A stretch of 64,000 nt of DNA from Thermoanaerobaculia bacterium (GCA_963666565.1 OY762911.1:1664001-1728000); one strand, 5' to 3'. Positions 20,532 to 54,595 are shown, counted from the stretch's first letter. The notes: a model not told the origin generated them from the sequence alone. Translations and numbers: made by a program.

Positions 20532-20595
20532 CGGTCGGGCGGGCTTGGCGGAGAACGCTTGATTCTAGCGGCGTGCTGTGTGCTAAGTTCGGCCC

Positions 20596-20835
20596 ATGCG
20601 ATTGCACATCGCGCTGGACGACGACCTCGTGGCCGAACTCGACCGGCGTGCCGGCCCCAGGCAGCGTAGCGCCTTCATCGCTGAACTGATCCAGCGGGGA
20701 CTCGACGACGAACGGCGCTGGGACGACATCGAAGCGGCGCTTGGCGGCATCTCCGACACGGGCCACGAGTGGGACGACGACCCGGCGGAGTGGGTGCGAC
20801 GCCAGCGGCGCGGCGACCGTCGGCGTTCAGGCTGA
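20596..20835 (+). CDS. Ribbon-helix-helix (CopG/VapB-type) antitoxin
   Basis: MRLHIALDDDLVAELD...RSAFIAELI RHH pattern, upstream of a PIN gene. Confidence 0.82.
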   Translation: MRLHIALDDDLVAELDRRAGPRQRSAFIAELIQRGLDDERRWDDIEAALGGISDTGHEWDDDPAEWVRRQRRGDRRRSG

Positions 20836-20837
20836 CC

Positions 20838-21227
20838 TTGAGCCGCCTGTTGCTCGATTCGACCGTGCTCATCGACGCCCTTCGGGGCCGTCGGGCGGCT
20901 GCGCAGGTAGCGGCTCTTCGCCGGCAAGGGACCGAGCCGTGGGTATGCGTCGTTTCGGTGGATGAGATCTGGAGGGGCATTCGACCCGGTGAAGAGTTGG
21001 CGGCGAGGAGGCTCTTCAGGGGCCTTCGTCTCGCTCCTCTGGGGAAGGCCCAGGGAATGGTGGCCGGCCGCTGGCGCCGCGAGTTCGCCGAGATGGGCGT
21101 CACGTTGCACCAAGCCGACTGCCTGATCGCCGCGGCCGCCGTCGGCGTCGGCGCCGCATTGGCCACGGCCAACGTGCGCGACTACCCGATGGCGGCGGTC
21201 GAGGTGAGAGAATGGCCAGTGGGTTAG
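20838..21227 (+). CDS. vapC: PIN-domain VapC-type toxin
   Basis: LLLDSTVLID, ADCLIAAAA, LATANVRDYP. Confidence 0.88.
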   Translation: MSRLLLDSTVLIDALRGRRAAAQVAALRRQGTEPWVCVVSVDEIWRGIRPGEELAARRLFRGLRLAPLGKAQGMVAGRWRREFAEMGVTLHQADCLIAAAAVGVGAALATANVRDYPMAAVEVREWPVG

Positions 21228-21633: not shown

Positions 21634-22731
21634 ATGAGAAAAGAAACGAATGAATGGAGCGTCCGCATGCTCGCGGACCTTAGGCCTCGAATCAACGTCG
21701 AGGCGGAGTACCAGCGCAGCAGCGTCTGGTCGCGGGCACAACAGGCGCTCTTGATTGACTCGATTCTCAGAGGCTTCGATGTTCCTAAGATCTACCTCAG
21801 GAAGCTGCCAGATGGAAGTCCTCATCTCTTCGATGTTGTCGACGGGAAGCAGCGGCTTACAGCCATCTGGTCGTTCCTCGAGGATGATTTACCACTCCTG
21901 AAGACAGCCGAGACCTTTCCGGAGGTGGGTGATCTAGGCGGTCGGTCATGGTCAGAGCTTCCGGATCCGGCCCGAGATCGGCTGCAGTTCTCCAGCATTA
22001 CCGTATCGAAGCTGGAGAACGCGTCGGAAGACGACATTCGGGAGTTGTTCCTTAGACTCCAAAAGGGTGAGCCACTCAAGGCTGCGGAGAAGCGCAATGC
22101 TATGGTGGGTCCCGTACGCGACTTCGTCGCGGACACGCTGGCCTGCCATCCGTTCTGGTCTAAGTCTGGAATTCGGGAGGCACGACTTGGCTGGCATGAG
22201 CATTCAGCCATCGTTCTCTCCCTTGCAATACAAGGTGGACCAACCGGAGTAAAGGGAGCGGACCTTCAGCAGCTCTACAGCGAACAGGACTTCGATGCTA
22301 GCGGCGATGCGGCAGAGCGCGCTGTGAGTGTTCTTTCGGCCTTGGAGACGGTGGAGGACGCGGAGGGAGACGCTCTCATTCGCAACCGGTGGGCGGTAGT
22401 GGATTTGGCTGTCGTTGTGATGCGACTTCATCTAGAGGGGCGAACGGTTGACCCGGTGCTCCTTTCTAGCTTCTTTCAGGGCTTCGAGACGGAGCGCTTG
22501 AGGGTTGGACGGGAGCTAAGGAACCTGCAGACGGAGGTCATCGAGTTGTCGACCGATGAGTCGGGTGACGATCTCACGATCTTCCTGCCTTCGGCGGCGC
22601 CCGACATGTTGGTGTACTACCTAGCGTTTTCCAGGGAGGGGGCAAGTAAGGAGAGCGTCCAGAAGCGTACCGACGTCATGTACGAACGTTACATGCAGTT
22701 CTGTGCGTCGGGAAGCGAGGACCCCGAGTGA
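21634..22731 (+). CDS. DUF262 (GmrS/SspE N-terminal-like, ParB/Srx fold) protein without a visible HNH domain
   Basis: YQRSSVW, LIDSILRGF.VP, VVDGKQRLTAI, LFLRLQKGEPL; no EHIxP motif seen. Confidence 0.85.
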   Translation: MRKETNEWSVRMLADLRPRINVEAEYQRSSVWSRAQQALLIDSILRGFDVPKIYLRKLPDGSPHLFDVVDGKQRLTAIWSFLEDDLPLLKTAETFPEVGDLGGRSWSELPDPARDRLQFSSITVSKLENASEDDIRELFLRLQKGEPLKAAEKRNAMVGPVRDFVADTLACHPFWSKSGIREARLGWHEHSAIVLSLAIQGGPTGVKGADLQQLYSEQDFDASGDAAERAVSVLSALETVEDAEGDALIRNRWAVVDLAVVVMRLHLEGRTVDPVLLSSFFQGFETERLRVGRELRNLQTEVIELSTDESGDDLTIFLPSAAPDMLVYYLAFSREGASKESVQKRTDVMYERYMQFCASGSEDPE

Positions 22732-23456
22732 GATTCTCTCGGCCAGTTCTGTTCAGGGCGGCTAGGGTTCTGGCGGTGGTGGTACTTGGCGTACTCGGGG
22801 TCGTGGCTAGTGGTAACTCCGTGGGGATGGGCGTAGCTGCCGGTCTTTGCGGTGTTGCGGTTGTTGTTCTAGAGGTGGGGAGCGCGCGTTGGGAAGGTCG
22901 TTCGGCAAATCCGCTTGGTGCGAAGCATGACGCGGTTCTCGGTCGGGCGATGACCCTGATAGCAGATCTCGCGCAGCTAGCCGGAAGGGAGTACGATCTT
23001 TGGGTGGTGGATTTGTATCTTCCGAAGTACGAGCTATTGGCGTGGTCCCCTTCTCGCTCGGGAACGTTGGGGTTAGCCGTGCACTTGGCGTTGACGGATA
23101 CCCGGAGCGTTCCCAATCAGTTGGATGTCGACGACTCCCTCATAGGATCCGTCTTTTCGGAGTGTCGGCCCGCGCACTGGTGGGATGAGACGCTCGCATC
23201 TTCGGCGGACGAAAATCGGTGGTGGGGGCTTGACGAGAAGAGCAGAGAGCGGTTTCGGGATGAGGAGTACGGTGTGATGAGTGCTTTTCCTGTGGTGAGT
23301 AGCCTGGGTACCGACTGTTGCGGTGTGCTTGTCGTGCACGTCAGGCGCGACGTCGAGGCCGCGACCAAGGCGCTTTCGGTGCTTCGGCAGGAGGAGGGGA
23401 AGCGCAGAGTAGCGGCGGCCTGCCGTGACATGTTCAACCAGTTGAGGTCGGCATAG
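22728..23456 (+). CDS. Membrane protein, two N-terminal TM helices plus GAF-like C-terminal domain
   Basis: Two hydrophobic segments in first ~50 aa; C-terminal GSVF...SAFPVVSSLGTDCCGVLVVH resembles GAF; GTGA coupled to DUF262 gene. Confidence 0.6.
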   Translation: MRFSRPVLFRAARVLAVVVLGVLGVVASGNSVGMGVAAGLCGVAVVVLEVGSARWEGRSANPLGAKHDAVLGRAMTLIADLAQLAGREYDLWVVDLYLPKYELLAWSPSRSGTLGLAVHLALTDTRSVPNQLDVDDSLIGSVFSECRPAHWWDETLASSADENRWWGLDEKSRERFRDEEYGVMSAFPVVSSLGTDCCGVLVVHVRRDVEAATKALSVLRQEEGKRRVAAACRDMFNQLRSA

Positions 23457-23547: not shown

Positions 23548-24390
23548 TCACTTGTGGCATGCCAAGCACACCTTCGCCTGTCCATAGAGATCGTCGATAT
23601 CCAGAACCTCGGCGTCCGGCCGTAGCGGATTGGGCTGCAGCGTCGCTCGCGTCCGCGCTAGTCGCCGCTGATGATCTTGTCGAATCTGCTCGACGCGCTC
23701 CGGTCGTTCCAGTTCGATCAGGGACTCGCCCTGACTCCAAGTGAAAGGCGACCCGTGTTCAACGGCGGTCTTCTCGTAGGCCTTGGCCTCTTCGAACGCG
23801 TCCGGATGGCGCTCCCTTAGGCGAACCCACTCGATCTTCTGCTGGAAGAAGCAGAACGTGCAGCCGCTCCGAGTGCGCCACTCGTAGTATGTCGGCAATC
23901 CCAATCCGGCGCTGTAGAGGAGCTCAAGCACGCCTTCCTTGTTGATTCCGGCTTCCTTCAAGGGCAAGCGCACCTTGAGGTTCTCGCGTTTTGAGGAGTA
24001 GCCCTCGCGGTACTCTTCGTCGGCCCGGATGGCGACGTAGCTGGTCACTGTGGTGCCCTCCTCAAGTGCTGGTCGGACCCAACTTTCGAAGGGGCGCAGC
24101 TTGAGCATGCGGGTGCACCAGCGGCTCTGAGCGGACGGCAGGAAGTCGTTGTATCGCTTGAGCCAGAAGTCGAAGTCGCGGTCCGGGTTGAGCCGGAGAA
24201 TCGGCTTGCCCAGGAATCCTTCGAGGCGATTGAGGAACTCATAGACCTCTGGAAGTTCCTTGCCGGTGTCGGTGAAGAAGTAGTCGATGTCGAGGTCGGG
24301 ATGGTTCTGGCGCATGTGTACGGCCAGAGCGGCGCTGTCTCGACCGCCCGAGAGACCCAGGACGTGCCATTCGGTCCGTTCACTGCTCAT
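23548..24390 (-). CDS. sspD: PAPS reductase-family protein, SspD-like (DNA phosphorothioation)
   Basis: SGGRDS PP-loop, FTDTGKE, RWCTRMLK, RSGCTFCF, C-terminal CLACHK; coupled to sspC-like gene. Confidence 0.8.
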   Translation of the reverse strand: MSSERTEWHVLGLSGGRDSAALAVHMRQNHPDLDIDYFFTDTGKELPEVYEFLNRLEGFLGKPILRLNPDRDFDFWLKRYNDFLPSAQSRWCTRMLKLRPFESWVRPALEEGTTVTSYVAIRADEEYREGYSSKRENLKVRLPLKEAGINKEGVLELLYSAGLGLPTYYEWRTRSGCTFCFFQQKIEWVRLRERHPDAFEEAKAYEKTAVEHGSPFTWSQGESLIELERPERVEQIRQDHQRRLARTRATLQPNPLRPDAEVLDIDDLYGQAKVCLACHK

Positions 24391-27300
24391 GAGGTGCCGG
24401 GCTCCGCGTCATCCGCCCCGGTGGCCGAAGGGGAGGCCAAGTAGCGGGCACTTACTTCGGCGAGCGCCGCAAGGACGATGCTGCGGCGCCCGTTTCCGGC
24501 CTCGGTCAGGACGGCATCGAGCCTTGAAGCGAGCGACTCGACATCCGGCCGGTCGAGGTCCCCTACCGCGAACTCGTCGTGCAGGGTGGCCGGAGCGCCT
24601 TCCAGGCCGACGACGACGGCCATCGAGTGGCGCTTGTCGACGCGGCCCTTGACGCGGGCGAAGGCCTCGGCGCGAAGGAAGCCCTGGGCCAGGGCTGCGA
24701 TCTCGACGGTGGCTCGGTCGATGTCGGGATCAACCCAGGCTTGCGGCGGCTTGTTGACTGCCAGGCTGGCGAGCCCTTTGATGTCGTCCTCGGTCCCCTC
24801 GAAGCGGGACAGCCGGACGATGAAGGCCTCGAGACGGTGGTCGCCGCCCAGCTCACGAATGTTCTCGGCGCGATGCCGCAGTTCGCCGAGCATGGCAGGT
24901 GAGGAGTTCGGCACCTGAAGCTCCGAGAGCAGGACCTCTCGCAACCGGCCGAGCATCGCAGGCCATGCCTCGATGAGCTCCGACAGGCCCTGCCGCACGC
25001 GTTCCGCGATGCGCGCAGCAGCATCTTCTTCGGCATCGGCATGAGGCTCCTTCAGGAGCTCGGGCATGTCGTCGAACAGGAGGCGGTTCGGGTCCTTCGC
25101 TTGCCGGAACAAGTGGCGGATGTCGCGAGCGTTGCGCGAGAGTCGCTGCGTACGGCCTGTCCAGGACGGCAGCCTGTCGTGGATCGCTACCAGGCCTCTG
25201 GCCACGTCGATCGGTTCCAAGTACGCGAGTGCGTTGGCGGGGTCCAGGTCCCGAACGACTTCCGCCAACTCAGCGAGTAGTTGCCTGGAAACGCCGCCCA
25301 GGTCCATCCACCGAAACTGAATGTCCGATGCGTCTCGCACCAGGAAGTCGAGGTCCAGGTCCGTGATACGGGTTTGGAACACGCGTTCCCGGTAGAAGGC
25401 CAATTCGCTGTGGTGAGACAGCAGAAGGGCCACCGAGAGTACGGGGAGGAGGCCGTCTTTGATGCCGAGCGGGGGCTGGCGCCAGATGTCGTGGATTTCG
25501 CTGACCGCTACAGCGCGATGGGCGTTGCTCACGAGGAAGTCCCGGGCCGCTTGCCATGCAGGCGCCAGGTGGTGAGTGTCCGAGAGACCCGGCTCGGGCG
25601 CCATGAAGCGCCAGCCGTCCTCCGATCTTCGGTACAACCCGGTCGCCAACAGGAGGGAAACGAAGAGGCCTGCTTCGGCCGGAAACGCCTCGATGCCGAG
25701 CCGTGTCTCGCCCTCGTTCAGCACCATGCGCCGGAGAAGGGCGTTCTGCGCGGCGACAGCGTTGCTCGATGGTCTTGCCCGACCGAGGAGTTCGTTGTGG
25801 AGCCTGGGCGCGTCGTGGAACCGGGCATCGGCCAAGTCGGAGGCCAAGGCGCTCAGGCCGGCGCGTGAGAGTTGAGCGGGCCGTGCATCCTTGCCGTACC
25901 AGGACGCGCTGTCGAACATTCGCGTGATCTCGGTTTCGAGGCTCTGCTCCACGGCTTCGATGCGTGCGTGAACCTCAGCACGAGCGACGCGGTCCCCTTG
26001 CAGCTCGGGAGTTTCGTCCCGCACCCGTTCCAGTGCGGTCAGTTCTCTCGCCAAGTCTCGGATGCCCCATGCGCTGGGGGAGAATCCCGCGAGGACGTCC
26101 CACTCACCGGAGGAGTCGGCGGCATCTCGACACAGGGCCCTCGCTTCGTGCTCCGATTCGCCTTGGGTGGGAATCCCTAGGAGGAAGGCCCCGATCGAGC
26201 CCTGTTGCGGGGAGAAGTCGGCGGCGGCTTGCCCCAACTCCTCCAAAGGCAGAACACTGACATCGAACCACCGGAGGGCCCCTGTCTGGTGGTAGTGGCG
26301 CTTCGCCACGACGTGATCAAGTTCGGTCGACGTGCGCAACACGCGGAAGTCCAGCGCACCGGGTGCGAGAGTTTTGGCTTCGAGCGCTCGGTCGATGTCG
26401 AAGTCGCTGCCCTCGAAGACCGCCCAAGCGTTGGAGAACTTCCGGAAGACTATGAGTGAGCGATCACGCAGGCCTTCCAGAGCGGTAGCGATCTCCTTAG
26501 CCTCGTGTTCCCGGCAAGCCAGCCCAAGTAGCTCTTCGCTAGCCGTCAGGCCGGAGCTTTCCTTGAGCAGGTCCAGGAGCGCGATCACCTTGAGCAGCCT
26601 CTGATCCAGTTCGTCGCATCCCATAGCTTCGCTTCGGCCGAGGGCGTAGGAGGCGAGCGACCAGCGGTGGCTATCCGGCGACACGAGGATCGACGGTTCC
26701 AGGTTGGCGCGCAGATAGTCCCAGAGGCGGTCGGGGGTGTAGATCTCCTCTTCGTTGGCGGTGCGCAAGAAGTCCTGGAAGCCGAGAGGTTCGGCTGAGT
26801 TGAGGAATGCGAACAGGCTCCTCTGGTTCTGTCCGAAGCGACGCCGAGAAAGCGGGCCCAGCAGGCAGGCGACGATGGGGTGCAAGGGCCAGCAGTCGTC
26901 CAGCCTTTCGGCCAGGGTGGTCGATGTCCGCCGTGAGAGTTGGGCTACCTGCGCCGCCAGTTGGCGCGGTCGCTGCGGCCGATGCCCGTTCTCGATCGCT
27001 CGGCCGAGAAGCTCGATCTGTTCCTCGCCGGCCGTGTTGATCGGCAGGTCTACGAACCGGCCCTGGATCTTCGCCCAGTCGTCGCGGGCCTCTCGCGAGA
27101 GCCGATGCGCGTACTCGGCGAAAGCCTGATGGAGGATTCCGACGATGATGAGCCGCCCGCCGCTTCGAGACGCGCGTTCCGCCAATCGTTGAAAGAGGTG
27201 GATGTCGGACCCGTCGTGCGCCGCCGCTTCGAGGAACTTGCCCATCTCGTCGATGAATACGAAGAGACCGCCGCCTGCGCGGGGGTGCCGACCCGCGAGC

Positions 27301-27758
27301 TCCTCCAGCGCGTCAAGGACGCGCGTCTCCGTCCAGGAGTCCGGCGGCAGCCACTCCGACGCTTCGATCGCTTGACCGATGACTCGGGCCGGAGCGTCGC
27401 GCCGGGCGGACACGGGGAGGACCAGCCAGCCACGGGTCCGTGGCGGAAGGGCGCCGGTTAGCGCGTCGAACGTAGCTTCGCCCAGCAGGGATTGGGCCTC
27501 GTTCCGGAGGCGCTTCGCGCCGTTCAGCGCTGCGCCCAGGACGACCGCCAAGCTAGACTTGCCGGCGCCGTAGGGCCCCGTCCAAGTGAACGCGCCCTGT
27601 CCGGTGCTTGCTACGTGGTGGGCCATGATCTCAAGGGCTTCGGCTGAAGAGCGGGGGCAGATGAACCCTTTCAGGGCGGACGGGTCGCTCATGTCCGAGC
27701 CGATGTTGATGGCGCGTTGGTAGCGCCGCGCTACGTGGACCCGTTCTGCCAGCGTCAC
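24387..27758 (-). CDS. sspC: Large P-loop ATPase, SspC-like
   Basis: GPYGAGKSS Walker A, FIDEMGKFLE Walker B, W.KIQGRF, PLHP, GQNQRSLF; lies between DUF4007 and PAPS reductase genes. Confidence 0.8.
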   Translation of the reverse strand: MTLAERVHVARRYQRAINIGSDMSDPSALKGFICPRSSAEALEIMAHHVASTGQGAFTWTGPYGAGKSSLAVVLGAALNGAKRLRNEAQSLLGEATFDALTGALPPRTRGWLVLPVSARRDAPARVIGQAIEASEWLPPDSWTETRVLDALEELAGRHPRAGGGLFVFIDEMGKFLEAAAHDGSDIHLFQRLAERASRSGGRLIIVGILHQAFAEYAHRLSREARDDWAKIQGRFVDLPINTAGEEQIELLGRAIENGHRPQRPRQLAAQVAQLSRRTSTTLAERLDDCWPLHPIVACLLGPLSRRRFGQNQRSLFAFLNSAEPLGFQDFLRTANEEEIYTPDRLWDYLRANLEPSILVSPDSHRWSLASYALGRSEAMGCDELDQRLLKVIALLDLLKESSGLTASEELLGLACREHEAKEIATALEGLRDRSLIVFRKFSNAWAVFEGSDFDIDRALEAKTLAPGALDFRVLRTSTELDHVVAKRHYHQTGALRWFDVSVLPLEELGQAAADFSPQQGSIGAFLLGIPTQGESEHEARALCRDAADSSGEWDVLAGFSPSAWGIRDLARELTALERVRDETPELQGDRVARAEVHARIEAVEQSLETEITRMFDSASWYGKDARPAQLSRAGLSALASDLADARFHDAPRLHNELLGRARPSSNAVAAQNALLRRMVLNEGETRLGIEAFPAEAGLFVSLLLATGLYRRSEDGWRFMAPEPGLSDTHHLAPAWQAARDFLVSNAHRAVAVSEIHDIWRQPPLGIKDGLLPVLSVALLLSHHSELAFYRERVFQTRITDLDLDFLVRDASDIQFRWMDLGGVSRQLLAELAEVVRDLDPANALAYLEPIDVARGLVAIHDRLPSWTGRTQRLSRNARDIRHLFRQAKDPNRLLFDDMPELLKEPHADAEEDAAARIAERVRQGLSELIEAWPAMLGRLREVLLSELQVPNSSPAMLGELRHRAENIRELGGDHRLEAFIVRLSRFEGTEDDIKGLASLAVNKPPQAWVDPDIDRATVEIAALAQGFLRAEAFARVKGRVDKRHSMAVVVGLEGAPATLHDEFAVGDLDRPDVESLASRLDAVLTEAGNGRRSIVLAALAEVSARYLASPSATGADDAEPGTS

Positions 27759-28711
27759 TAGGCCACCTTCTCGCGGCCGGACAGTACGTAGTCCTGCTCG
27801 ATGAAGTCGAGCGCTTCGGCCTCGCCCACCGTGTGCGTGCGGATCAACTGCTTCAGTCCCGCGGTCTCGGACCACCGGTACACGCCCCCGGTGTCTTCTT
27901 CCATTCCGAGGAGCCGGTCTGCGAGCGCGTCCTCGTCCAGCAGGAACACCCTGCCGGGCGATCCCGGCTCGTGGGCGAGAGCTTCGAACGACAGCGTCGC
28001 GGCGGCGGAGTAGAGATCCCAGAACTCGGTCACGGCCAGAGCGAACACGCCGGCTCCGAGCGTCGGCTTCTGACCTCGCATGAAGCGGAAGCCGTCACGG
28101 CTTCCCGCGGAGCGGATCAGGCCGAGTTCCGTCAGCGGCGACTCCAGGGCGTCCTCGTAGCTCGCCTTGGCCGAGGTTGGGCGTCGAACGTAACTGCGAA
28201 CGAAGCACTTGACGTCGTTGGCGATCGTGGTTGCCGCCGCTCGTGGCCACCGCCGGTCCTGCTTGAGCTTCAAGATCCCTTGAACCAGCGCATCGCGCTC
28301 GAACGTCATGGACGGATAGTGACCGAACGCCCAGAACCATGTCGTGTTTTTCGGGTTTCCGCAGAGGCGCCAGTGAACGAGCCAAGTCGTCGCCGGGACC
28401 TCCATGTAGGGGTCGAGACCGTCGTCGGCGAACAGGCGTCGCCCGAGTTCGGTAGGCGAGGGCTTGCCGCTCGTCTCCTCGACCACGCCGGCGGCACCGG
28501 CCCAATGGCGCATCGATGCCACCATGTTCCGCCCGACTCCGAACCGGGCGATCGCGTCATCCGCCAGGAAGACGGACTTACCCCCGGCCGGCTCGCCACC
28601 GGTCGCCACCGCGTCGAACGCCTTCTTTAGCCATCCGTAGCGGAGCGGGAAGGTCTCGTGCCCCGAGAGCTTCGGCCGGTATCCGTCTTCGTATAGAGGG
28701 CCTCGGAACAT
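27758..28711 (-). CDS. sspB: DUF4007 family protein, SspB-like
   Basis: SGHETFPLRYGWLKK, FGVGRNMV.SMRHW, DPYME...T.WL.HW, ETAGLKQ. Confidence 0.85.
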   Translation of the reverse strand: MFRGPLYEDGYRPKLSGHETFPLRYGWLKKAFDAVATGGEPAGGKSVFLADDAIARFGVGRNMVASMRHWAGAAGVVEETSGKPSPTELGRRLFADDGLDPYMEVPATTWLVHWRLCGNPKNTTWFWAFGHYPSMTFERDALVQGILKLKQDRRWPRAAATTIANDVKCFVRSYVRRPTSAKASYEDALESPLTELGLIRSAGSRDGFRFMRGQKPTLGAGVFALAVTEFWDLYSAAATLSFEALAHEPGSPGRVFLLDEDALADRLLGMEEDTGGVYRWSETAGLKQLIRTHTVGEAEALDFIEQDYVLSGREKVA

Positions 28712-28809
28712 CGGTCTGCGGGGCTGGACGCTGTGTCCAGTTCGACAGTAGGCCATTCCGTTGCTAGCGTCAAGGCCGCGCCTGGACTCCGCGTCCAGCC
28801 GCCTCCTGC

Positions 28810-29988
28810 ATGCGCGACGGCGAGATCATCTACGCCGACTATCAGGCGACAACTCCTGTCGACCCGCGTGTGGTCGACCGGATGGCTCCGTACTGGAACG
28901 AGGCCTTCGGCAACCCGCACTCTAGCGACCACATCGTCGGGTGGCGGGCTGCTCAGGCCGTCGAGGATGCCGCGGACTCAGTTGCGGGCTTGATCGGCGC
29001 CGACGCCGACGAGATCGTCTTCACGTCGGGGGCCACAGAGGCGAACAACCTCGCGTTGTTCGGCTTGGCGCGACGAGCGCCGCCGGGCCGTAATCGCATT
29101 CTCGTCAGCGCCATCGAGCACAAGTGCGTCCTTGCCACCGCACGGGCGCTTGCGGCCCGCGAGGGCTTTGTCGTGGAGAGCCTTCCTGTGGACCGGGAGG
29201 GTGTGGTAGCCCCGGCGGACTTGGAAGCGCGAGTCGGCGATGACGTGCTCGTCGCATCCGTCATGGCGGTGAACAACGAGGTCGGGACGGTTCAGGACGT
29301 GCCGGGCTTAGCGGCGGTTCTTCATGCTCGCGGCATACCCCTTCACTGCGATGCCGCGCAGGGGCCTTGCGGCATGTGGGTTGGCGACTTGGCCTCACAG
29401 GCCGACTTGATCAGCCTCTCTGGTCACAAGATGTACGGTCCGCAGGGAGTTGGCGCGCTGTACGTGAGTCGCGATCTTCAGACTGCCCTCGAGCCCCTTA
29501 TCTACGGTGGCGGGCAGCAGGACGGCCTTCGGTCCGGCACTGTGCCACTGCCGCTCTGTGCCGGCCTGGGTAGTGCGGCCGTTTTGCTCACCGGCCCGAA
29601 GGCTACGGAGGAGCGTAAGGAGCTCCGGAGGCTGCGGGACCGGTTTGTAGATCTCCTCCGTGCCGGCACCTACCGGCTGTCGGGGAACGGTCCCGCCACC
29701 GGTGGCCATCCGGGCAACGTCAACCTCCGGTTTCACGGCTACGATGCACGGGACGTGTTGGCGGCGCTGCAACCGCGCCTCGCGGCATCGACAGGTGCGG
29801 CCTGTGCTTCCGGCATCCCCGAGCCGTCGCACGTGCTTCGAGCCCTTCGCCTCAGTGGCGACGCATGCGACGAGTCTATTCGGTTCAGTTTCGGCCGATT
29901 CACGACCGAGGAAGAAGTCGAGGCTGCCGCCGCGCTCGTGCTGCGGGCGTTGGCGTCGCTCCCTGTAGGCCCCCCGCTGGACTGCTGA
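28810..29988 (+). CDS. sspA: Cysteine desulfurase (IscS/DndA/SspA-like), divergent from sspBCD
   Basis: DYQATTP, FGNPHS, FTSGATEANN, SGHKMYGPQG, RSGT, STGAACASG. Confidence 0.85.
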   Translation: MRDGEIIYADYQATTPVDPRVVDRMAPYWNEAFGNPHSSDHIVGWRAAQAVEDAADSVAGLIGADADEIVFTSGATEANNLALFGLARRAPPGRNRILVSAIEHKCVLATARALAAREGFVVESLPVDREGVVAPADLEARVGDDVLVASVMAVNNEVGTVQDVPGLAAVLHARGIPLHCDAAQGPCGMWVGDLASQADLISLSGHKMYGPQGVGALYVSRDLQTALEPLIYGGGQQDGLRSGTVPLPLCAGLGSAAVLLTGPKATEERKELRRLRDRFVDLLRAGTYRLSGNGPATGGHPGNVNLRFHGYDARDVLAALQPRLAASTGAACASGIPEPSHVLRALRLSGDACDESIRFSFGRFTTEEEVEAAAALVLRALASLPVGPPLDC

Positions 29989-30190
29989 GCCGTGCGGTCT
30001 GAGTGCTACAGTCCGCCGACTTGAGGTCAGGACCCTTGGCTGCAACGAGCAGCCCTGCGGACGCCTGACGCCCTGGAGTTGTTCGTGTGGCACGACGGAA
30101 GAGCTTCGGCCCCGATGCTCTCGGGTAAAGCCCGGAGCGTTCCTCTGACGTTGCCGCAGCGGTTCATCTCAGCATGGCGGGCAGGCTGAA

Positions 30191-31813
30191 GTGCCCTGCC
30201 CGGTGGTTGGCGGCCCCGGTCTCACGGTAGGCCGATTCCTCGATACGATTCCGGACCGAGAGGTTCGCCGCCTCTTGGAGGGCCGCACCTTGGCGCTTCT
30301 GAACGTCGTCTCGGGTTGCGAGGTCGAGGGTCCGCGACTGCGCCTAGCGGTCCGAGCGATGGTGGACTTCGGTGCGCTTCTGGAAGAGTCGAGGAGCCGG
30401 GCACTGGTGCTCGGCCTGCTCCCTGAGCCCAAGCGCGCCGAACTGGGTCACCGCCTTGGCAGGAGCGTGTCCTCGGATGCCGCAGAGAATTGGACCAAGG
30501 CCGATGTCAGCGGCCTTCGTGCCTTCTTCGGACTACTGGAGGACGATCGAGTTGTACCCTCGCCGTTGGCAGCGCCGGTCGAATCGGTCGTGCCCGCCTA
30601 CGGCCTGTTCGATCATCAGCGCGCTGCCGTTCGACGGTTGCTGCCCCTGCTGGCTGAAGACGAGCGTCGAGCGGTGCTGCACTTTCCCACCGGTGCGGGA
30701 AAGACGCGGACGGCGATGCACGTGGTCGCAAAGGCGCTGCGAGACGTTGAACCTTCGGTGGTGGTCTGGCTCGCGTCTGGCAGGGAGCTACTCGAGCAAG
30801 CTCTGCAATCCTTCAAGGAGGCCTGGACACGTCTCGGCACAAGGCCTCTGCAGCTTGGAACCATGTCTGGCAACCGGATGCCTGATCTGGCCGACTTCAA
30901 AGATGGGTTCCTCGCCGTCGGCCTGGAGAAGGGCTGGGCCGTACTCTCGCGGACGGACCCTGACTGGGCTGTGCGACTTGCACCACGTGTGCGATTGGTC
31001 GTCTTCGATGAGGCCCATCGGAGCACCGCACAGACCTATCGCCGCCTTACCGATGATCTGACCCTCGACTATCGCTGTGCACTCCTGGGACTGACTGCAA
31101 CGCCTGGTCGAACCTGGGCAGACATCGACGAGGATGGGGAGTTGGCCGACCTATACTCCAGGGCCAAAGTCGCGCTAGAGGTTCCTGGAGGTGGCAATCC
31201 GGTGAAGTACCTGATTGAGGGTGGCTACTTGGCTCGGCCGTTGTTCCGAACACTCTTCGCTAAACCCGGCGTCGAGATCGACGAGCAGGAAGTCGCCCGG
31301 ATCGCGAGAGCGATGGAGATACCGGAGAAGACCGTCGCTGCTCTGTCGGTGAGTGAACAGTATGTAACGGCCGTGCTTCAAGCGATCGAGGGCCTGCTTC
31401 GTGCTGGGCACCAGCGAGTTCTGGTCTTCGGTGCGAGTGTTGACCAGGTGCTCTTGCTGTCGGGTATTCTCCTTGCGCGCGGAATTCGTGGCTGGGCGGT
31501 CACAGGTCTGACGTCCCGTAGAGATAGAGACCATGCGATTCAGGAGTTCACGGCTGAGGACGACGTGCCCCGAGTTCTTGTGAATTTCGGAGTGCTGACA
31601 ACCGGGTTCGACGCGCCGAAGGCGAGCGCGGTAGTGATCGCAAGACCTACGAAGTCACTCGTCTTGTTCAGCCAGATGGTGGGACGAGCCATCAGGGGAG
31701 AGAGAGTCGGAGGTACGGCAACTTGCGAGATCGTCACCGTTGTGGATCCGAGCCTGCCTGGTTTCGGCGATGTGGCGGAGGCGTTCTTGAACTGGGAGGA
31801 CGTATGGCAATGA
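30191..31813 (+). CDS. SF2 DEAD/DEAH (ResIII-like) helicase
   Basis: PTGAGKT, FDEAHR, GLTATP, LTTGFDAP, QMVGRAIRG; start uncertain. Confidence 0.9.
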   Translation: MPCPVVGGPGLTVGRFLDTIPDREVRRLLEGRTLALLNVVSGCEVEGPRLRLAVRAMVDFGALLEESRSRALVLGLLPEPKRAELGHRLGRSVSSDAAENWTKADVSGLRAFFGLLEDDRVVPSPLAAPVESVVPAYGLFDHQRAAVRRLLPLLAEDERRAVLHFPTGAGKTRTAMHVVAKALRDVEPSVVVWLASGRELLEQALQSFKEAWTRLGTRPLQLGTMSGNRMPDLADFKDGFLAVGLEKGWAVLSRTDPDWAVRLAPRVRLVVFDEAHRSTAQTYRRLTDDLTLDYRCALLGLTATPGRTWADIDEDGELADLYSRAKVALEVPGGGNPVKYLIEGGYLARPLFRTLFAKPGVEIDEQEVARIARAMEIPEKTVAALSVSEQYVTAVLQAIEGLLRAGHQRVLVFGASVDQVLLLSGILLARGIRGWAVTGLTSRRDRDHAIQEFTAEDDVPRVLVNFGVLTTGFDAPKASAVVIARPTKSLVLFSQMVGRAIRGERVGGTATCEIVTVVDPSLPGFGDVAEAFLNWEDVWQ

Positions 31814-33738
31814 CGAACAAAGGCGAACAGCTCACCTTTCCGATCATCGATACGAAGATGACGGTTGAGGCGATGCGCGACAGTGGCTACAAGTCCACGA
31901 CGCATGCCTTGGCTGAGTTGATCGACAACGCGATAGAGGCCGACGCCACGTCGATAGAGATCTTCGGCCTAAGCCGCCGGGATCAGAGAACGAACAGATC
32001 CACGTTGAAGGAGCTCGCGGTCCTTGACAATGGGCATGGCATGGATGGGCTCACCCTTAGGGGAAGCCTCCGATATGGGCACGGTACACGCCGTGCGAGA
32101 CGGGGAATCGGCCGCTTTGGCCTCGGACTGCCTAACTCGTCCTTGTCGCAGGCCAGGCGAGTCGAGGTCTGGTCTTGGCAGGCTGGTGCGTCCAACGCTC
32201 TCCACACATGGCTGGCGATAGAGGACGTGGAAGGCGGAGCGACGGAGATTCCGGAGCCGCGACTTCAAGCTCCACCGGCTGTGTATCTGGAGGCGAGCCG
32301 GGTGCCCTTCTCCGAGTCCGGGACGCTGGTCGTTTGGAGGGAGTTGGACCGGGTCCAGTGGAAGAGCGCCGGTACTACCTTTAGTCATACGGAGTCGCTG
32401 CTGGGGCGGATCTACCGTCGCTTTCTCGCATCGCCGACTGACCGCCTGCATGCGGAGGACCAACGAGGCAGGGACATTGGTGCGCAACGCCGCATCGTCT
32501 GCATTCCCGTTGAAGAGGAAGCGGACGGGCTGAACGTCCGTGAGGACGCGATCGTGGAGGTGCGACCAAACGATCCGCTCTACCTGATGGCCGGCACGTC
32601 GTGCCCTGAGCATTTCGGCGAAGGTCGGATGTTCGTGGAGCTCGAGTCCAGCCCCTTCTCGGTGCCGGTGCAGGTAGGCGACGAGACGCATGAGGTTCGA
32701 GTGCGCGCGAGCTATGCCCGACCGCAGGTGCGCGACTCTGCCCACCCGGAGGCTGATTGGCCGGCCCGCTGGAGAGGTTCGGACGCTGGCCATACGGAAT
32801 GGGGCAAACACGCCGACTCGAATCGGGGTGTCTCCTTGGTACGGGCCCATCGAGAGCTGCAGTTGGATGCTTCCTGGTTGAGCGGTGACGATCCGAGGGA
32901 GAGATGGTGGACGGTCGAGATCGACTTTCCCACAGCGTTGGACGACGTGTTCGGCGTCACGAACAACAAACAGGGCGCCACGATTTTCCGGCGGCTCGCG
33001 CAGTACGACTACAGGCGGGACGCTCTTCCCGGTGAGAGCGTGGGCGACGTTCGTCGGCGGATGCAGGCCGATGGCGACACTCGCGTGTTTCTGCTTGACC
33101 TTCAGAAGCAGGTCAGGAACTGCATCAAGGCGATGCGCCCTCGCGTGAAGCAGGCGCGCAAGCGTAGGCACGACCAACGATCCAGTGAAGACGAACGGGC
33201 CGACGCGAAGGCCACGGTCGTGATCGAGCGCAGGGCCGAGGAAGGACACAAGGGGCGCTCTGATCAAGAGGGCGAGTCCACGAACGAGCAGGAGAAGAAG
33301 GAGAGGCAGCTTCAGTCCCTGGTCGAGAAACACCGCCTTGACCGGCCCGACGCCTTGCGGAGGATCGATGAGACGATCCGCGCCGGCAGCAGGGTCCGTT
33401 GGATACAGTCCGCCCAATCGAGCCCGGCCTTTTTCGACGTCGAGTCTCTCCCTAACGTGATTCAGGTCGCTCTCAACACGGATCATCCCGTGCACTCGGA
33501 TCTCTATGAGGTGATGCATCCGGATGTCGAGGATCTGAGCGAGCAGGAGGTTCGGGATCGCCTCGACAAGGCGGCGGCGGCTTTTCGTCTTCTTATCTAC
33601 TCTTGGGCGCGATTCGAGGAGGAGCAGACTACGCGGGACCGCAAGAACCTCCGCAACGCTCGCTACGAATGGGGGAAGTACGCTGAAGAGTTCTTCGACG
33701 AAGACGACGACTCGGTCATTGCCACGGACTTGGTCTGA
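31810..33738 (+). CDS. GHKL ATPase, prokaryotic MORC/MutL-like
   Basis: MRDSGY...ALAELIDNAIEA, DNGHGM, GIGRFGLGL, GTLVVW, FGVTNNKQ; ATGA coupled to helicase. Confidence 0.85.
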   Translation: MTNKGEQLTFPIIDTKMTVEAMRDSGYKSTTHALAELIDNAIEADATSIEIFGLSRRDQRTNRSTLKELAVLDNGHGMDGLTLRGSLRYGHGTRRARRGIGRFGLGLPNSSLSQARRVEVWSWQAGASNALHTWLAIEDVEGGATEIPEPRLQAPPAVYLEASRVPFSESGTLVVWRELDRVQWKSAGTTFSHTESLLGRIYRRFLASPTDRLHAEDQRGRDIGAQRRIVCIPVEEEADGLNVREDAIVEVRPNDPLYLMAGTSCPEHFGEGRMFVELESSPFSVPVQVGDETHEVRVRASYARPQVRDSAHPEADWPARWRGSDAGHTEWGKHADSNRGVSLVRAHRELQLDASWLSGDDPRERWWTVEIDFPTALDDVFGVTNNKQGATIFRRLAQYDYRRDALPGESVGDVRRRMQADGDTRVFLLDLQKQVRNCIKAMRPRVKQARKRRHDQRSSEDERADAKATVVIERRAEEGHKGRSDQEGESTNEQEKKERQLQSLVEKHRLDRPDALRRIDETIRAGSRVRWIQSAQSSPAFFDVESLPNVIQVALNTDHPVHSDLYEVMHPDVEDLSEQEVRDRLDKAAAAFRLLIYSWARFEEEQTTRDRKNLRNARYEWGKYAEEFFDEDDDSVIATDLV

Positions 33739-33741
33739 CCG

Positions 33742-34665
33742 ATGGCGGCGACGGTGCTTGCGACGGAAGGCGAACGGATTCGCGCTCTCTTTGCGGAGGA
33801 GAAGAGCAGTGTAGGCATTGTAGCTCCCTTCGTCAAGGTAGATGCCCTACGATCGTTGCTCGACGTGCTGGACGATGGCGTCCCGGTCAGATGCATCACG
33901 AGATGGCGCCCGCGGGAAGTGGCTGCAGGCGTGTCGGATCCAGAGATTCTGGAAGTACTCGATGACCGGGGGAACTCGACGGTCTCGATAGTGGATGAAC
34001 TCCACGCGAAACTCTACTTCGCCGGGGACAGATGCCTCGCAGGTTCGGCCAACGTCACGAGAGCAGGCTTCGGCGAGAGTACCGGCGGTGGGAACATCGA
34101 GGTTCTCGTCGAAACATCGATGACTGATCCTTCTGTGGCGGCCACTCTGGCGAGGATCGGCGAGCTCGAGAGGCCCGTGTCCAGGAGCATGGCGGATGCG
34201 GTGCGGCGTTTGGCCGACATTCTGGTGACATCGCCCCGACCGGTAGCGGACATGGAGGCACGTTGGTTGCCGCTGAGCAGAAGACCCGAGCAGGCGTACC
34301 GGCAGTACTCCACCCCCTCCGCGGCCTTTGTGTCAAGTGCAGATCGATTGCTTCTTGAGGATGTAGCGATGGCGGATGTTCCGGCTGGTCTTGCCGAGCA
34401 GGAGTTCAGGGAGTCCATTCGTGGCGTGCTCGCGGAGACGCCTCTCGGTGCATCGTTGTTGGGACGGGAGGAAGACGTGGTAGTGACGCGCGGGGAGCTA
34501 GGTGAGGAGCTTCGGGAATCGGCGAGGCAGGCAGGGGGTGGCTTTACGGAGGAGGATGTTTGGCGCGGTCTCGTGGAGTGGATGACGCACTTCTTTCCGG
34601 AGAAGCTGATGAAGCAGGAAGTGGCCGAGATCGCTCTGCGCCGCGCTCGGGTACTCGATCACTGA
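33742..34665 (+). CDS. Phospholipase D-family (single HKD) putative nuclease
   Basis: APFVK, LHAKLYFAGD...GSANVT motif, GNIE. Confidence 0.82.
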   Translation: MAATVLATEGERIRALFAEEKSSVGIVAPFVKVDALRSLLDVLDDGVPVRCITRWRPREVAAGVSDPEILEVLDDRGNSTVSIVDELHAKLYFAGDRCLAGSANVTRAGFGESTGGGNIEVLVETSMTDPSVAATLARIGELERPVSRSMADAVRRLADILVTSPRPVADMEARWLPLSRRPEQAYRQYSTPSAAFVSSADRLLLEDVAMADVPAGLAEQEFRESIRGVLAETPLGASLLGREEDVVVTRGELGEELRESARQAGGGFTEEDVWRGLVEWMTHFFPEKLMKQEVAEIALRRARVLDH

Positions 34666-48059: not shown

Positions 48060-48213
48060 ACTTGCAATCTGCCGAGGCCGAAACCTGCAATCCGCCGGCG
48101 TCCAAACCTGCAATCTGCCGAAGCCTGAATCTGCATTCTGCCGACGCACAAACCTTCAATCTGCCGACCTTGAACCTTGCAATCTGCCGACACCTGACCT
48201 TACAATCAGCCGA
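48060..48213 (+). repeat. Tandem array of 7 x 23-bp units (16-nt conserved core + 7-nt variable spacer)
   Basis: Cores start 48060, 48083, 48106, 48129, 48152, 48175, 48198; consensus about ACCTGCAATCTGCCGA; last core ends on the A of the ATG at 48213. Confidence 0.9.
48177..48206 (+). promoter_or_regulatory. Putative sigma70 promoter embedded in the last two repeats (leaderless mRNA)
   Basis: TTGCAA (48177-48182) N18 TACAAT (48201-48206); ATG A lies 7 nt after the -10 box; no Shine-Dalgarno. Confidence 0.5.
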
Positions 48214-49559: not shown

Positions 49560-49594
49560 TGCGCGCACACCTAGGGCTTGCGCTGCCGCCTGGC

Positions 49595-49622
49595 ATCCTG
49601 TAGGGTGTCGGGACTACAGGAT
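49595..49622. promoter_or_regulatory. Inverted-repeat operator candidate upstream of 49645 ORF
   Basis: ATCCTGTAG-N10-CTACAGGAT, 22 nt before the ATG. Confidence 0.5.
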
Positions 49623-49644
49623 AGACTCTGTATCGGAGGGTTGT

Positions 49645-52816: not shown

Positions 52817-52819
52817 CTA

Positions 52820-54587: not shown

Positions 54588-54595
54588 TAGCTTAG

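What the first reader, a model, noticed from the sequence alone, without database searches (positions are those of the whole stretch)
23548..34665. Ssp-type phosphorothioation module paired with a helicase-MORC-PLD nuclease operon: candidate new PT-linked defence system
Seen: sspB(DUF4007)-sspC(ATPase)-sspD(PAPS reductase) on the minus strand, a divergent cysteine desulfurase 98 bp away, then a tightly linked SF2 helicase, GHKL/MORC ATPase and single-HKD PLD protein. All sit in one lower-GC block. Established: SspABCD writes single-strand PT marks and is partnered by SspE or SspFGH. Archaeal Dnd uses PbeABCD, whose PbeA joins PLD and helicase domains. Prokaryotic MORCs are usually found with Z1, PD-(D/E)XK and AIPR genes (Mza-like). 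No SspE, SspFGH, Z1 or AIPR gene is recognisable here. Inference: helicase + MORC + PLD form a restriction module that may use PT status for self/non-self discrimination, a pairing I do not recognise as described.
Basis: partly seen in the sequence, partly recalled or inferred. Interest (0 to 1): 0.82.

Follow-up and report, generated by a model that had tools for sequence, protein, structure and literature searches.

The report
Helicase-MORC-PLD partner of Ssp phosphorothioation
A complete DNA-sulfur-marking gene set (sspABCD) sits beside a helicase, a MORC-type ATPase and a PLD nuclease that travel with ssp genes across many bacterial phyla, so the three probably form a so far unnamed restriction partner of this marking system.

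Summary
sspD, sspC and sspB lie on the minus strand and sspA diverges from them. An SF2 helicase, a MORC-like GHKL ATPase and a single-HKD PLD protein follow with overlapping or abutting reading frames. All lie in a lower-GC, lower-GC3 island.

The trio matches no PADLOC model for SspE, SspF or SspG. It gives only weak partial hits to PbeA, MzaB, ZacB and DrmC.

A genome scan seeded with the MORC protein kept 78 loci. All 64 loci with a full trio and at least 7.5 kb of upstream sequence carry sspBCD next to it. These span 9 gene orders and 12 phyla. The helicase often starts within a few bases of the sspD stop. On a cyanobacterial plasmid the trio lies between sspBCD and sspA. Closely related trios are joined to deeply different SspC lineages.

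I found no paper in the searchable library that links Ssp to a MORC, helicase and PLD module. The 2020 SspE paper is not held.

Best reading: an ATP-dependent, PT-coupled restriction module, a new variant of the PT restriction-modification kind. Function is untested.

The parts
21634..22731 (+). DUF262 (ParB-like, GmrSD_N) protein of 365 aa. Candidate accessory sensor; not a canonical SspE.
   Evidence: Pfam GmrSD_N, E 5.7e-17. PADLOC NsnA, E 5e-25, with no SspE hit. The QRxxxW and DGxQR motifs are visible in the translation. A homologous pair lies with the ssp-trio cluster in 8 of 78 loci; in 7 of them it sits between sspD and the helicase.
22728..23456 (+). 242-aa protein that overlaps the DUF262 stop, with a hydrophobic N-terminal stretch. 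Partner of the DUF262 gene; function unknown.
   Evidence: No Pfam or PADLOC family and no PDB sequence match. The hydrophobic stretch was read from the translation; no membrane predictor was run. It co-occurs with the DUF262 gene in 8 loci.
23548..24390 (-). sspD: PAPS-reductase-type ATP pyrophosphatase of the PT-writing module.
   Evidence: PADLOC SspD, E 1.5e-134, full length. Pfam PAPS_reduct.
24387..27758 (-). sspC: large P-loop ATPase related to BrxC. The maximal ORF runs to 27875; the likely start is the GTG at 27758.
   Evidence: PADLOC SspC, E 0, 1248 bits, aligned from residue 42 of the long ORF. TAGTG overlap with the sspB stop.
27758..28756 (-). sspB: DUF4007 protein. The start is the ATG at 28756 or, more likely, at 28711.
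   Evidence: Pfam DUF4007, E 5.4e-84. PADLOC SspB, E 1.3e-101. Start codons seen.
28810..29988 (+). sspA: class-V aminotransferase-fold cysteine desulfurase, divergent from sspBCD.
   Evidence: PADLOC SspA, E 1.2e-122, and DndA, E 4e-119. Pfam Aminotran_5, E 1.7e-74.
30191..31813 (+). SF2 helicase/translocase of 540 aa, with a family-specific N-terminal region of about 135 aa.
   Evidence: Pfam ResIII, DEAD and Helicase_C. Weak PbeA hit (E 1.4e-18) and weak type I/IV REase hits. PTGxGKT, DExH, TATPGR and QMxGRxxR are invariant in 32 homologues.
31804..33738 (+). MORC-like GHKL ATPase of 644 aa: GHKL domain, S5-like transducer, coiled coil and a C-terminal domain.
   Evidence: Pfam HATPase_c_3, E 6e-19. 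Best PDB sequence match is MORC2, E 6.6e-10. AF2 model with pLDDT 83. Foldseek matches Hsp90, MORC2 and SMCHD1. E38, N42, D75, G77 and G79 are invariant in 43 homologues. The ATG overlaps the helicase stop.
33742..34665 (+). Single-HKD PLD-family nuclease of 307 aa, with a family-specific all-helical C-terminal domain (about residues 148-284).
   Evidence: Pfam PLDc_2, E 5.7e-5. H88, K90, G101, S102 and N104 are invariant in 50 homologues. AF2 model with pLDDT 91. Foldseek matches SauUSI, NucT, BfiI, NgoAVII R-protein and Nuc.

Best explanation
The island encodes a phosphorothioate (PT) restriction-modification system. SspABCD writes PT marks on host DNA. The helicase, MORC ATPase and PLD nuclease form its ATP-dependent restriction arm, in the role that SspE or SspFGH play in the described systems.

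Shown here:
- All seven genes are intact.
- The catalytic motifs of the three trio proteins are conserved across the family.
- The three genes are translationally coupled.
- The trio is almost never seen without sspBCD next to it.

Inferred mechanism:
- The SF2 helicase translocates on double-stranded DNA, as the motor of type I/III enzymes and SauUSI does.
- The MORC dimer acts as an ATP-gated clamp.
- The PLD protein has only half an active site. It must pair to cut, so two copies are brought together on DNA.
- Cutting is prevented on DNA that carries PT marks, so unmarked invading DNA is degraded.

Which protein senses PT is unknown. Candidates are three family-specific regions: the helicase N-terminus, the MORC C-terminal half and the PLD C-terminal helical domain. 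The neighbouring DUF262 gene pair may be a second, optional effector module.
For: Identity of the parts.

Not a known Ssp partner. No window protein hits the PADLOC SspE, SspF or SspG models. The same library hits SspF and SspG at E 1e-247 and 6e-219 in locus L081, and SspE at E 0 in L043.

Linkage to ssp:
- The genome scan with MORC alignment A1 found 193 relatives, of which the best 80 were kept as 78 loci.
- A full trio is present in 68 of 78 loci, and at least two of sspB/C/D in 68 of 78. Both are present in 64.
- The 4 trio loci without ssp all end less than 3.6 kb upstream of the MORC gene, at a contig end. One of them shows sspD at that edge.
- The loci show 9 gene orders and come from 12 phyla.

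Operon structure. In many co-directional loci the helicase starts -4 to +16 nt from the sspD or orf242 stop. The helicase-to-MORC junction overlaps by 4, 10 or 16 nt in most loci. The MORC-to-PLD gap is -4 to +12 nt in most.

Plasmids:
- Trichormus variabilis ATCC 29413 plasmid A has sspB-sspC-sspD, two small ORFs, a DndB/SspE-like gene, helicase, MORC, PLD and then sspA, all on one strand.
- A Pannonibacter plasmid has the same set.
- An Agrobacterium plasmid has helicase, MORC and a different nuclease in one string with sspF, sspG and sspH, convergent on sspABCD.

Partner swapping. Trio proteins that are 63-70% identical to the window's are joined either to SspC at 54-87% identity or to SspC at 23-29% identity. 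On the MORC tree the SspC class changes 7 times, at least 5 of them forced by well-supported branches, among 66 labelled rows.

Absence of other partners. In the flanks of 22 sampled loci (120 ORFs) canonical SspE appears once and SspF/G/H never.

An open niche exists. 2,211 of 2,678 sspBCD clusters had neither sspE nor sspFGH (PMC8092258, section 9 read).
Against: - No experiment exists, so dependence on PT is inferred from gene linkage only.
- Three related Chloroflexota loci (L058, L069, L077) keep the helicase and MORC genes without PLD or ssp, between housekeeping genes. The pair can therefore persist alone.
- No known PT-binding domain was recognised in any of the three proteins.
- Many loci lie in defence islands with unrelated systems nearby. 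Some adjacency could therefore be co-localisation.
- The sample is biased. Only the best 80 of 193 relatives were kept, all were found through two MORC peptide patterns, and 26 of the loci are one actinomycete arrangement.
- More distant plasmid hits (H13-H25, 25-31% identity over the N-terminal half or so, apart from two short 34-36% matches) were not inspected.
- No fused forms that would show physical association were found. The tool itself calls this weak evidence.
Confidence: 0.7

Rival explanations
1. The trio is a self-contained ATP-dependent nuclease defence that does not read PT. It targets some other feature of invading DNA or acts by abortive infection. It sits beside ssp genes only because defence genes cluster and move together.
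For: - MORC plus SF2 helicase plus nuclease operons occur with methylases or alone in other lineages (PMC2292703, section 4).
- Helicase-MORC pairs exist without ssp in three Chloroflexota loci.
- Many loci are defence islands that also hold Mokosh, pAgo, Shosta or PDC systems.
- DndFGH is reported to be often decoupled from Dnd modification genes (PMC10853773, passages).
Against: - All 64 informative trio loci have sspBCD adjacent.
- The junction is often only a few bases, or overlaps, which indicates one transcript.
- On the Trichormus plasmid the trio lies between sspBCD and sspA.
- Adjacency to some ssp set is kept although the SspC lineage was exchanged at least 5 times. Chance co-localisation would not preserve that.
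- The three loci without ssp have also lost the nuclease.
Confidence: 0.12
2. The trio is activated by PT rather than held back by it. As described for SspE, PT marks on host DNA stimulate its ATPase and nuclease, which then nick or cut invading DNA. PT would act as a licence for activity and not as a protective self mark.
For: - SspE is described as PT-stimulated (abstracts of PMC8092258 and PMC9646914 in the listings).
- PT marks occupy only 10-15% of consensus sites (PMC12914056, passage), which makes simple site-by-site protection awkward.
- The trio co-occurs with SspE-like or DUF262 proteins in several loci.
Against: - Nothing in the sequences separates this reading from the PT-protected one.
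- The Chloroflexota loci that lost ssp also lost the PLD gene. That fits a nuclease that is harmful without PT. It is probably a single evolutionary event, however.
Confidence: 0.12
3. The trio serves the modification side: loading, site selection, turnover or repair of PT marks. The PLD protein would process PT-linked nicks rather than restrict foreign DNA.
For: - The genes are co-transcribed with sspBCD, and sspA is placed after the trio on one plasmid.
- PT writing involves nicking and ATPases. This point is recalled from the Ssp literature and was not checked in a call.
Against: - SspABCD systems described with SspE or SspFGH modify DNA without these genes (PMC8092258, sections 6 and 9).
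- The nearest structural relatives of the PLD domain are restriction or non-specific nucleases: SauUSI, BfiI, NgoAVII R-protein, NucT and Nuc.
- The nuclease gene is exchangeable: a different endonuclease takes its place in L081. That is typical of effectors.
Confidence: 0.06

Closest known systems
SspABCD-SspE and SspABCD-SspFGH (PT-based defence systems)
   Same: The same four-gene PT-writing module. An adjacent and sometimes co-transcribed nuclease/ATPase partner. Partners can be stacked on one sspBCD set: the trio occurs with an SspE-like gene or with SspFGH.
   Different: SspE is a single DUF262-HNH protein. SspF carries a Walker A motif and SspH an FtsK-like C-terminus (PMC8092258, passages). 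The trio is an SF2 helicase, a GHKL ATPase and a PLD nuclease, and it matches none of the SspE/F/G models.
PbeA of PbeABCD (Dnd-linked) and TIGR04095 'DNA phosphorothioation system restriction enzyme'
   Same: A PLD/HKD nuclease plus an SF2 helicase beside PT modification genes. The helicase core gives weak hits to PbeA (E 1.4e-18) and to TIGR04095 (E 3e-9, 36 bits against a cut-off of 600).
   Different: PbeA is one fused polypeptide that works with a CxC ABC ATPase, a DndE-like protein and a small protein (PMC10853773, passages). Here the nuclease and helicase are separate genes, a MORC ATPase lies between them, and the writer is Ssp and not Dnd.
Prokaryotic MORC / SF2 helicase / nuclease operons (Iyer, Abhiman and Aravind 2008)
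   Same: A MORC-type GHKL ATPase with an S5 domain, operonic with an SF2 helicase and a nuclease, sometimes of the HKD kind. These were predicted to be restriction-modification systems (PMC2292703, section 4).
   Different: The modification partners described there are DNA methylases. No link to PT or Ssp is made; the terms PAPS, Dnd and cysteine desulfurase occur 0 times in that text.
SauUSI, and the CglI/NgoAVII-type ATP-dependent PLD restriction enzymes
   Same: The best structural matches of the PLD domain are SauUSI (7clg) and the NgoAVII R-protein (4rct). These are PLD nucleases that need an ATP-driven helicase-like motor. That CglI and NgoAVII work as separate nuclease and motor proteins is recalled, not checked in a call.
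   Different: Those enzymes recognise a DNA sequence or modified cytosine through B3-like or target-recognition domains. The C-terminal helical domain here matched nothing outside its own family. None of them includes a MORC ATPase.
MZA (MzaABCDE), DISARM (DrmC) and Azaca (ZacB/ZacC)
   Same: Weak domain-level similarity: GHKL to MzaB (E 1.5e-14), PLD to ZacB (E 1.7e-9) and DrmC (E 4.4e-9), helicase to ZacC (E 2e-4).
   Different: Every score is far below family level. The other defining genes (Z1, AIPR, DrmA/B, ZacA) are absent from the window proteins scanned.

Membership tests
SspABCD PT modification module | SspA cysteine desulfurase, SspB (DUF4007), SspC P-loop ATPase and SspD PAPS-reductase-like protein encoded together | tested here: met
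   PADLOC: SspA 1.2e-122, SspB 1.3e-101, SspC E 0, SspD 1.5e-134, all full length. Pfam agrees.
SspABCD PT modification module | Single-strand PT marks actually written on host DNA (CCA-type motif) | not testable with these tools
   Needs LC-MS or iodine-cleavage mapping of genomic DNA.
SspE | A single protein with an N-terminal DUF262 NTPase and a C-terminal DUF1524 HNH nuclease | tested here: not met
   None of the 12 window proteins scanned hits a PADLOC SspE model at E <= 0.01. Those models score E 0 on L043. The neighbouring DUF262 protein is 365 aa with no HNH domain. Its 242-aa partner has no family.
SspFGH | Homology to SspF (Walker A protein), SspG and SspH (FtsK-like C-terminus) | tested here: not met
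   No window protein hits SspF or SspG models. The models do work: E 1.8e-247 and 5.9e-219 on L081. No FtsK domain is found in the trio.
PbeABCD | PbeA as a fused HKD nuclease and SF2 helicase, with a CxC ABC ATPase (PbeC), a DndE-like PbeD and a small PbeB | tested here: not met
   Only the helicase core hits PbeA weakly (E 1.4e-18, two stretches). The PLD protein does not hit PbeA. No PbeB/C/D hits.
MZA (MzaABCDE) | MzaB-type GHKL together with Z1 and AIPR genes; the NCBIfam MzaB equivalog cut-off is 850 bits | tested here: not met
   NCBIfam MzaB scores 69.5 bits against the 850 cut-off. PADLOC MzaB scores 51 bits over the N-terminal 200 residues only. No Z1 or AIPR is found among the window genes scanned.
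MORC family of GHKL ATPases (sensu Iyer et al. 2008) | Four GHKL ATP-binding motifs, an S5-fold transducer, and the GhXhhpXXRhl motif in the S5 domain | tested here: met
   - E38, N42, D75, G77, G79, G103 and G106 are invariant in 43 homologues.
- The fold matches MORC2, SMCHD1 and Hsp90.
- The best PDB sequence hit is MORC2, E 6.6e-10.
- Residues 342-352 read GVSLVRAHREL, which fits the motif except for E at the last 'h' position. This was read against the motif quoted.
- Whether it is a MORC proper or a paraMORC was not resolved by a tree.
PLD/HKD nuclease superfamily (Nuc/BfiI type) | One HxK(x)nD...GSxN motif per chain on a Nuc-like fold; the active site forms by dimerisation | tested here: met
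   H88, K90, G101, S102 and N104 are invariant in 50 homologues. AF2 pLDDT is 91. Foldseek matches SauUSI, NucT, BfiI and Nuc with probability 1.00. Dimerisation itself was not tested.
DISARM | DrmA helicase and DrmB (DUF1998), with DrmC PLD as an accessory | tested here: not met
   Only a weak DrmC hit for the PLD protein (E 4.4e-9). No DrmA or DrmB hit.

The most novel reading that the evidence does not exclude
A bacterial MORC ATPase, with a helicase and a half-site PLD nuclease, forms a third and widespread restriction arm of the Ssp phosphorothioate system. It reads the PT backbone mark as such, not a particular sequence context, which would explain why one trio lineage works with deeply different SspBCD sets. 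This would link the MORC family, known from epigenetic silencing in eukaryotes, to a DNA-backbone epigenetic mark in bacteria. It would also account for part of the 84% of sspBCD clusters so far called orphan.
Probability: 0.35. Interest if true: 0.8.

Novelty: new variant of a known kind. Interest (0 to 1): 0.66.

Why it matters
- PT-based defence is known with only a few restriction partners: DndFGH, PbeABCD, DndI, SspE and SspFGH. The authors of the SspFGH paper reported that 2,211 of 2,678 sspBCD clusters had no known partner, and they raised unknown partners as one explanation. This trio is a concrete, widely distributed candidate.
- The family is large. The PLD protein alone has 720 cluster representatives at E <= 1e-30.
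- Culturable, non-pathogenic carriers exist in which the idea can be tested directly: Streptomyces, Kitasatospora and Trichormus variabilis ATCC 29413.
- It offers a tractable bacterial system for asking what a MORC ATPase does on DNA and how a backbone sulfur is sensed.

Tried and rejected
- **Recalled SspFGH architecture.** I first recalled SspFGH as helicase, GHKL and PLD. The paper's text shows that this is wrong and the PADLOC models confirm it.
- **Complex prediction.** MORC (A3) with PLD (A2) returned 'no answer', score 0.00. This is no evidence either way.
- **Fused forms.** Searches for fused forms of the PLD protein and of the MORC protein among longer proteins found none. The tool calls this weak evidence. 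Two longer PLD-family representatives (P0210, P0237) carry no extra Pfam domain.
- **PLD C-terminal domain.** The Atlas look-up of PLD residues 145-307 returned only its own family, at scores of 0.83 or less. Its function stays open.
- **Helicase in the Atlas.** The look-up gave generic SF2 clusters and one cluster auto-named 'putative DNA phosphorothioation system restriction enzyme' at 0.96. This is a lead only.
- **Island borders.** No tRNA, no flanking direct repeats of note and no integrase or transposase among the genes scanned.
- **Promoter and terminator scan.** The island gave no more sites than shuffled sequence.
- **DUF262 pair in the PDB.** Sequence searches with the DUF262 protein and its partner found nothing.
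- **Literature.** Searches found no paper that joins Ssp/PT terms with MORC/GHKL or with a helicase-PLD module. The 2020 SspABCD-SspE paper is not held, so its neighbourhood analysis stayed unseen. No supplementary tables were opened.

Full report
**What is in the window**

The region 21.6-34.7 kb is a lower-GC island. GC is 0.60-0.67, against 0.70-0.75 around it. Third-position GC of its genes is 0.67-0.78, against 0.88-0.95 for flanking genes.

On the minus strand lie sspB, sspC and sspD:
- sspB: DUF4007, E 5e-84; PADLOC SspB, E 1e-101.
- sspC: PADLOC SspC, E 0.
- sspD: PADLOC SspD, E 1.5e-134.

sspA lies on the plus strand, divergent from them (PADLOC SspA, E 1e-122). The sspC start is probably the GTG at 27758, which overlaps the sspB stop.

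After a 202-bp spacer come three more genes:
- An SF2 helicase (30191-31813).
- A GHKL ATPase. Its ATG at 31804 sits behind a GGAGG and overlaps the helicase stop.
- A PLD protein, three bases after the ATPase stop (33742-34665).

**The three proteins**

*Helicase.* It has ResIII, DEAD and Helicase_C domains. Motifs I, II, III and VI are invariant in 32 homologues; I aligned 32 of the 71 available. Residues 1-135 have no family.

*ATPase.* It is MORC-like.
- Pfam HATPase_c_3.
- The best PDB sequence match is human MORC2, E 6.6e-10.
- The AlphaFold2 model has mean pLDDT 83 and matches Hsp90, MORC2, SMCHD1 and MORC3/4.
- The ATP-binding residues are invariant in 43 homologues; I aligned 43 of the 73 available.
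- Residues 342-352 fit the MORC-specific S5 motif quoted by Iyer et al., except at one position.

*PLD protein.*
- It has one HxK...GSxN motif, invariant in 50 homologues; I aligned 50 of the 75 available.
- The model is confident, pLDDT 91.
- The N-terminal 145 residues match PLD-family nucleases: SauUSI, NucT, BfiI, NgoAVII R-protein and Nuc.
- The helical C-terminal domain matched nothing outside its own family.
- With a single HKD per chain, two chains must pair to form a site. This follows from established knowledge of Nuc and BfiI.

**Not a described Ssp partner**

- I first recalled SspFGH as a helicase/GHKL/PLD set. The paper's text shows otherwise: SspF has a Walker A motif and SspH an FtsK-like C-terminus (PMC8092258, passages).
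- PADLOC holds SspE, SspF and SspG models that score E 0 to 1e-219 on other loci. No window protein matches them.
- The trio's best PADLOC hits are weak and partial: PbeA 1.4e-18 (helicase core), MzaB 1.5e-14 (GHKL N-terminus), ZacB 1.7e-9 and DrmC 4.4e-9 (PLD).
- NCBIfam gives MzaB 69.5 bits against a cut-off of 850, and the Dnd 'restriction enzyme' model TIGR04095 36 bits against 600.

**Linkage to ssp across genomes**

The MORC family is large and very conserved. The search scored 3,063 hits at E <= 0.001, and the top 120 are 67-90% identical over the full length.

A scan of 185,579 species genomes with alignment A1 found 193 relatives. The best 80 were kept as 78 loci with up to 10 kb on each side. 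I searched these loci by tblastn with the window's nine proteins:
- 68 of 78 loci have the full trio.
- 68 of 78 have at least two of sspB/C/D.
- 64 have both.
- The four trio loci without ssp (L017, L022, L030, L032) all end less than 3.6 kb upstream of the MORC gene. L032 shows sspD at the contig edge.
- Four ssp loci lack a full trio by tblastn. L025 and L040 have lost sspD and the helicase. L039 has a disrupted PLD. L078 has a divergent PLD, recovered by BLASTP at E 6e-9.
- Three loci (L054, L075, L076) are contig fragments with too little upstream sequence to judge.
- Three related Chloroflexota loci (L058, L069, L077) have only the helicase and MORC genes, between sugar-metabolism, copper-resistance and tRNA-synthetase genes.

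The 68 ssp-linked loci show 9 gene orders and come from 12 phyla.

As an estimate of my own, not a computed control: even if 10% of genomes carried ssp or dnd, the prevalence quoted in PMC12914056, a random gene would have them within 10 kb well under once in a thousand.

**One operon**

- In many co-directional loci the helicase starts -4 to +16 nt from the stop of sspD, or of the DUF262 partner gene.
- The helicase and MORC genes overlap by 4, 10 or 16 nt in most loci.
- The MORC-to-PLD gap is -4 to +12 nt in most loci.

Three annotated plasmids tell the same story:
- Trichormus variabilis ATCC 29413 plasmid A carries, on one strand, DUF4007, a 1,168-aa protein, a PAPS reductase, two small ORFs, a 769-aa 'DndB' protein, a DEAD/DEAH helicase, an ATP-binding protein, a PLD family protein and a cysteine desulfurase. 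The trio thus lies inside the ssp gene set.
- A Pannonibacter plasmid has sspA, sspBCD, helicase, MORC and PLD.
- An Agrobacterium plasmid has the helicase, the MORC, an unrelated endonuclease and then SspF, SspG and an FtsK-domain protein. This string is convergent on sspABCD.

**Partner swapping**

Trio proteins that are 63-70% identical to the window's are joined either to SspC at 54-87% identity or to SspC at only 23-29%.

The SspC tree separates these as deep clades. It was built with FastTree on 62 rows. Rows outside 900-1300 aa or with an internal stop were dropped, which removed L001, L002, L009 and L021 among others.

I labelled the MORC tree by SspC class. It has 75 rows: 66 labelled, of which 10 are class I and 56 class II.
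- The label changes 7 times, at least 5 forced by starred branches.
- The shuffled mean is 9.5, and 4-5 of 500 shuffles are as low.

Class II lumps every SspC below 50% identity, and the tree is a quick search, so the number is approximate. The reading is that modification and restriction modules have been recombined repeatedly while adjacency to some ssp set was always kept. Mere co-inheritance would not do this.

**Other partners are mostly absent**

I scanned 120 flank ORFs from 22 diverse loci with PADLOC, choosing 22 of the 78 for diversity.
- Canonical SspE appeared once (L043).
- SspF, SspG and SspH never appeared.
- DndB-like ParB proteins appeared twice (L004, L019).

**The neighbouring DUF262 pair**

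Just beyond sspD lies a 365-aa DUF262 protein with QRxxxW and DGxQR motifs. Its best PADLOC hit is NsnA, E 5e-25. An overlapping 242-aa ORF follows, with a hydrophobic N-terminus and no family.

Homologues of both genes lie with the cluster in 8 of 78 loci. In 7 of them they sit between sspD and the helicase. This is not SspE, because it has no HNH domain. It does share SspE's sensor domain family, and it may be an optional second module.

**Host and setting**

- The window is co-linear with L001 (Candidatus Multivorans sp., Acidobacteriota) at 83% nucleotide identity over 23550-34661. Flanking genes are 85-89% identical.
- In L002 the flanks are 87-89% identical, but the ssp genes only 75% and the trio 68%.
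- No tRNA, integrase or flanking repeats mark the island.

**Literature**

- No paper in the held library combines Ssp/PT terms with MORC/GHKL or with a helicase-PLD module.
- Iyer et al. 2008 predicted MORC plus SF2 helicase plus nuclease operons as restriction-modification systems with methylases (section 4 read).
- Rakesh et al. 2024 treat the Dnd-linked fusion of an HKD nuclease with an SF2 helicase, PbeA. Neither MORC nor GHKL occurs in their text (passages).
- The SspFGH paper states that 83.9% of sspBCD clusters lack sspE and sspFGH, and raises unknown restriction partners as one explanation (section 9 read).
- The 2020 SspABCD-SspE paper is not held, and no supplements were opened. Prior mention there, or in subscription journals, cannot be excluded.

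**Verdict**

The trio is most likely the ATP-dependent restriction arm of a PT restriction-modification system, a new variant of a known kind.
- *Shown:* gene content, motif conservation, operon structure and near-obligate linkage to ssp.
- *Inferred:* that it restricts PT-free DNA, that the MORC dimer helps to pair two PLD half-sites, and which protein senses PT.

Noticed in passing
window 21634-23456: A DUF262 (ParB-like) gene and an overlapping 242-aa gene with a hydrophobic N-terminus lie next to sspD. Homologues of both lie with the ssp-trio cluster in 8 of 78 related loci, in 7 of them between sspD and the helicase. This may be a split, non-HNH analogue of SspE.
   Followed up: partly
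window 20769-21227: A PIN-domain (VapC-like) ORF sits at the left edge of the island. The stretch 20570-21227 is 89% identical in nucleotides to L002, next to that genome's own ssp-trio cluster.
   Followed up: no
window 48213-55768: A second lower-GC block. It holds an AAA_14/DUF4143 ATPase matching the PADLOC candidate system PDC-S01 (E 2e-156), an 865-aa ORF with no family, two small ORFs, and a type II N6/N4 DNA methyltransferase. It is probably another defence or restriction-modification locus.
   Followed up: partly
L002-L042 (MAG loci): Trio proteins 63-70% identical to the window's occur in MAGs labelled as about ten different phyla, including Latescibacterota, Gemmatimonadota, Nitrospirota, Spirochaetota, Poribacteria and Dehalococcoidia. 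This points to recent horizontal spread within shared habitats.
   Followed up: no
L058, L069, L077 (Chloroflexota): Helicase and MORC genes only, with no PLD and no ssp, lie between rhamnose-isomerase, CopCD and Gln-tRNA-synthetase genes. Either this is a remnant that lost the nuclease and the writer together, or the pair has a different role.
   Followed up: partly
L081/L082 (Agrobacterium plasmid NZ_CP039925.1, 353848-375149): The helicase and MORC genes are followed by an unrelated endonuclease in place of PLD, and then directly by sspF, sspG and an FtsK-domain sspH-like gene. The string is convergent on sspABCD. The nuclease has been exchanged, and two restriction modules are stacked.
   Followed up: partly
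L043, L045, L065 (Actinomycetota), about 12.9-14.6 kb: Downstream of the PLD gene these loci carry a roughly 215-aa ORF and a second, divergent SspD-like PAPS-reductase paralogue (PADLOC SspD, E about 1e-13). L043 also has a canonical SspE.
   Followed up: no
L025, L040, L037, L039, L041: Decayed or interrupted copies. L025 and L040 lack both sspD and the helicase. L037, L039 and L041 have 1.3-3.4 kb inserted between MORC and PLD, or a truncated PLD.
   Followed up: no
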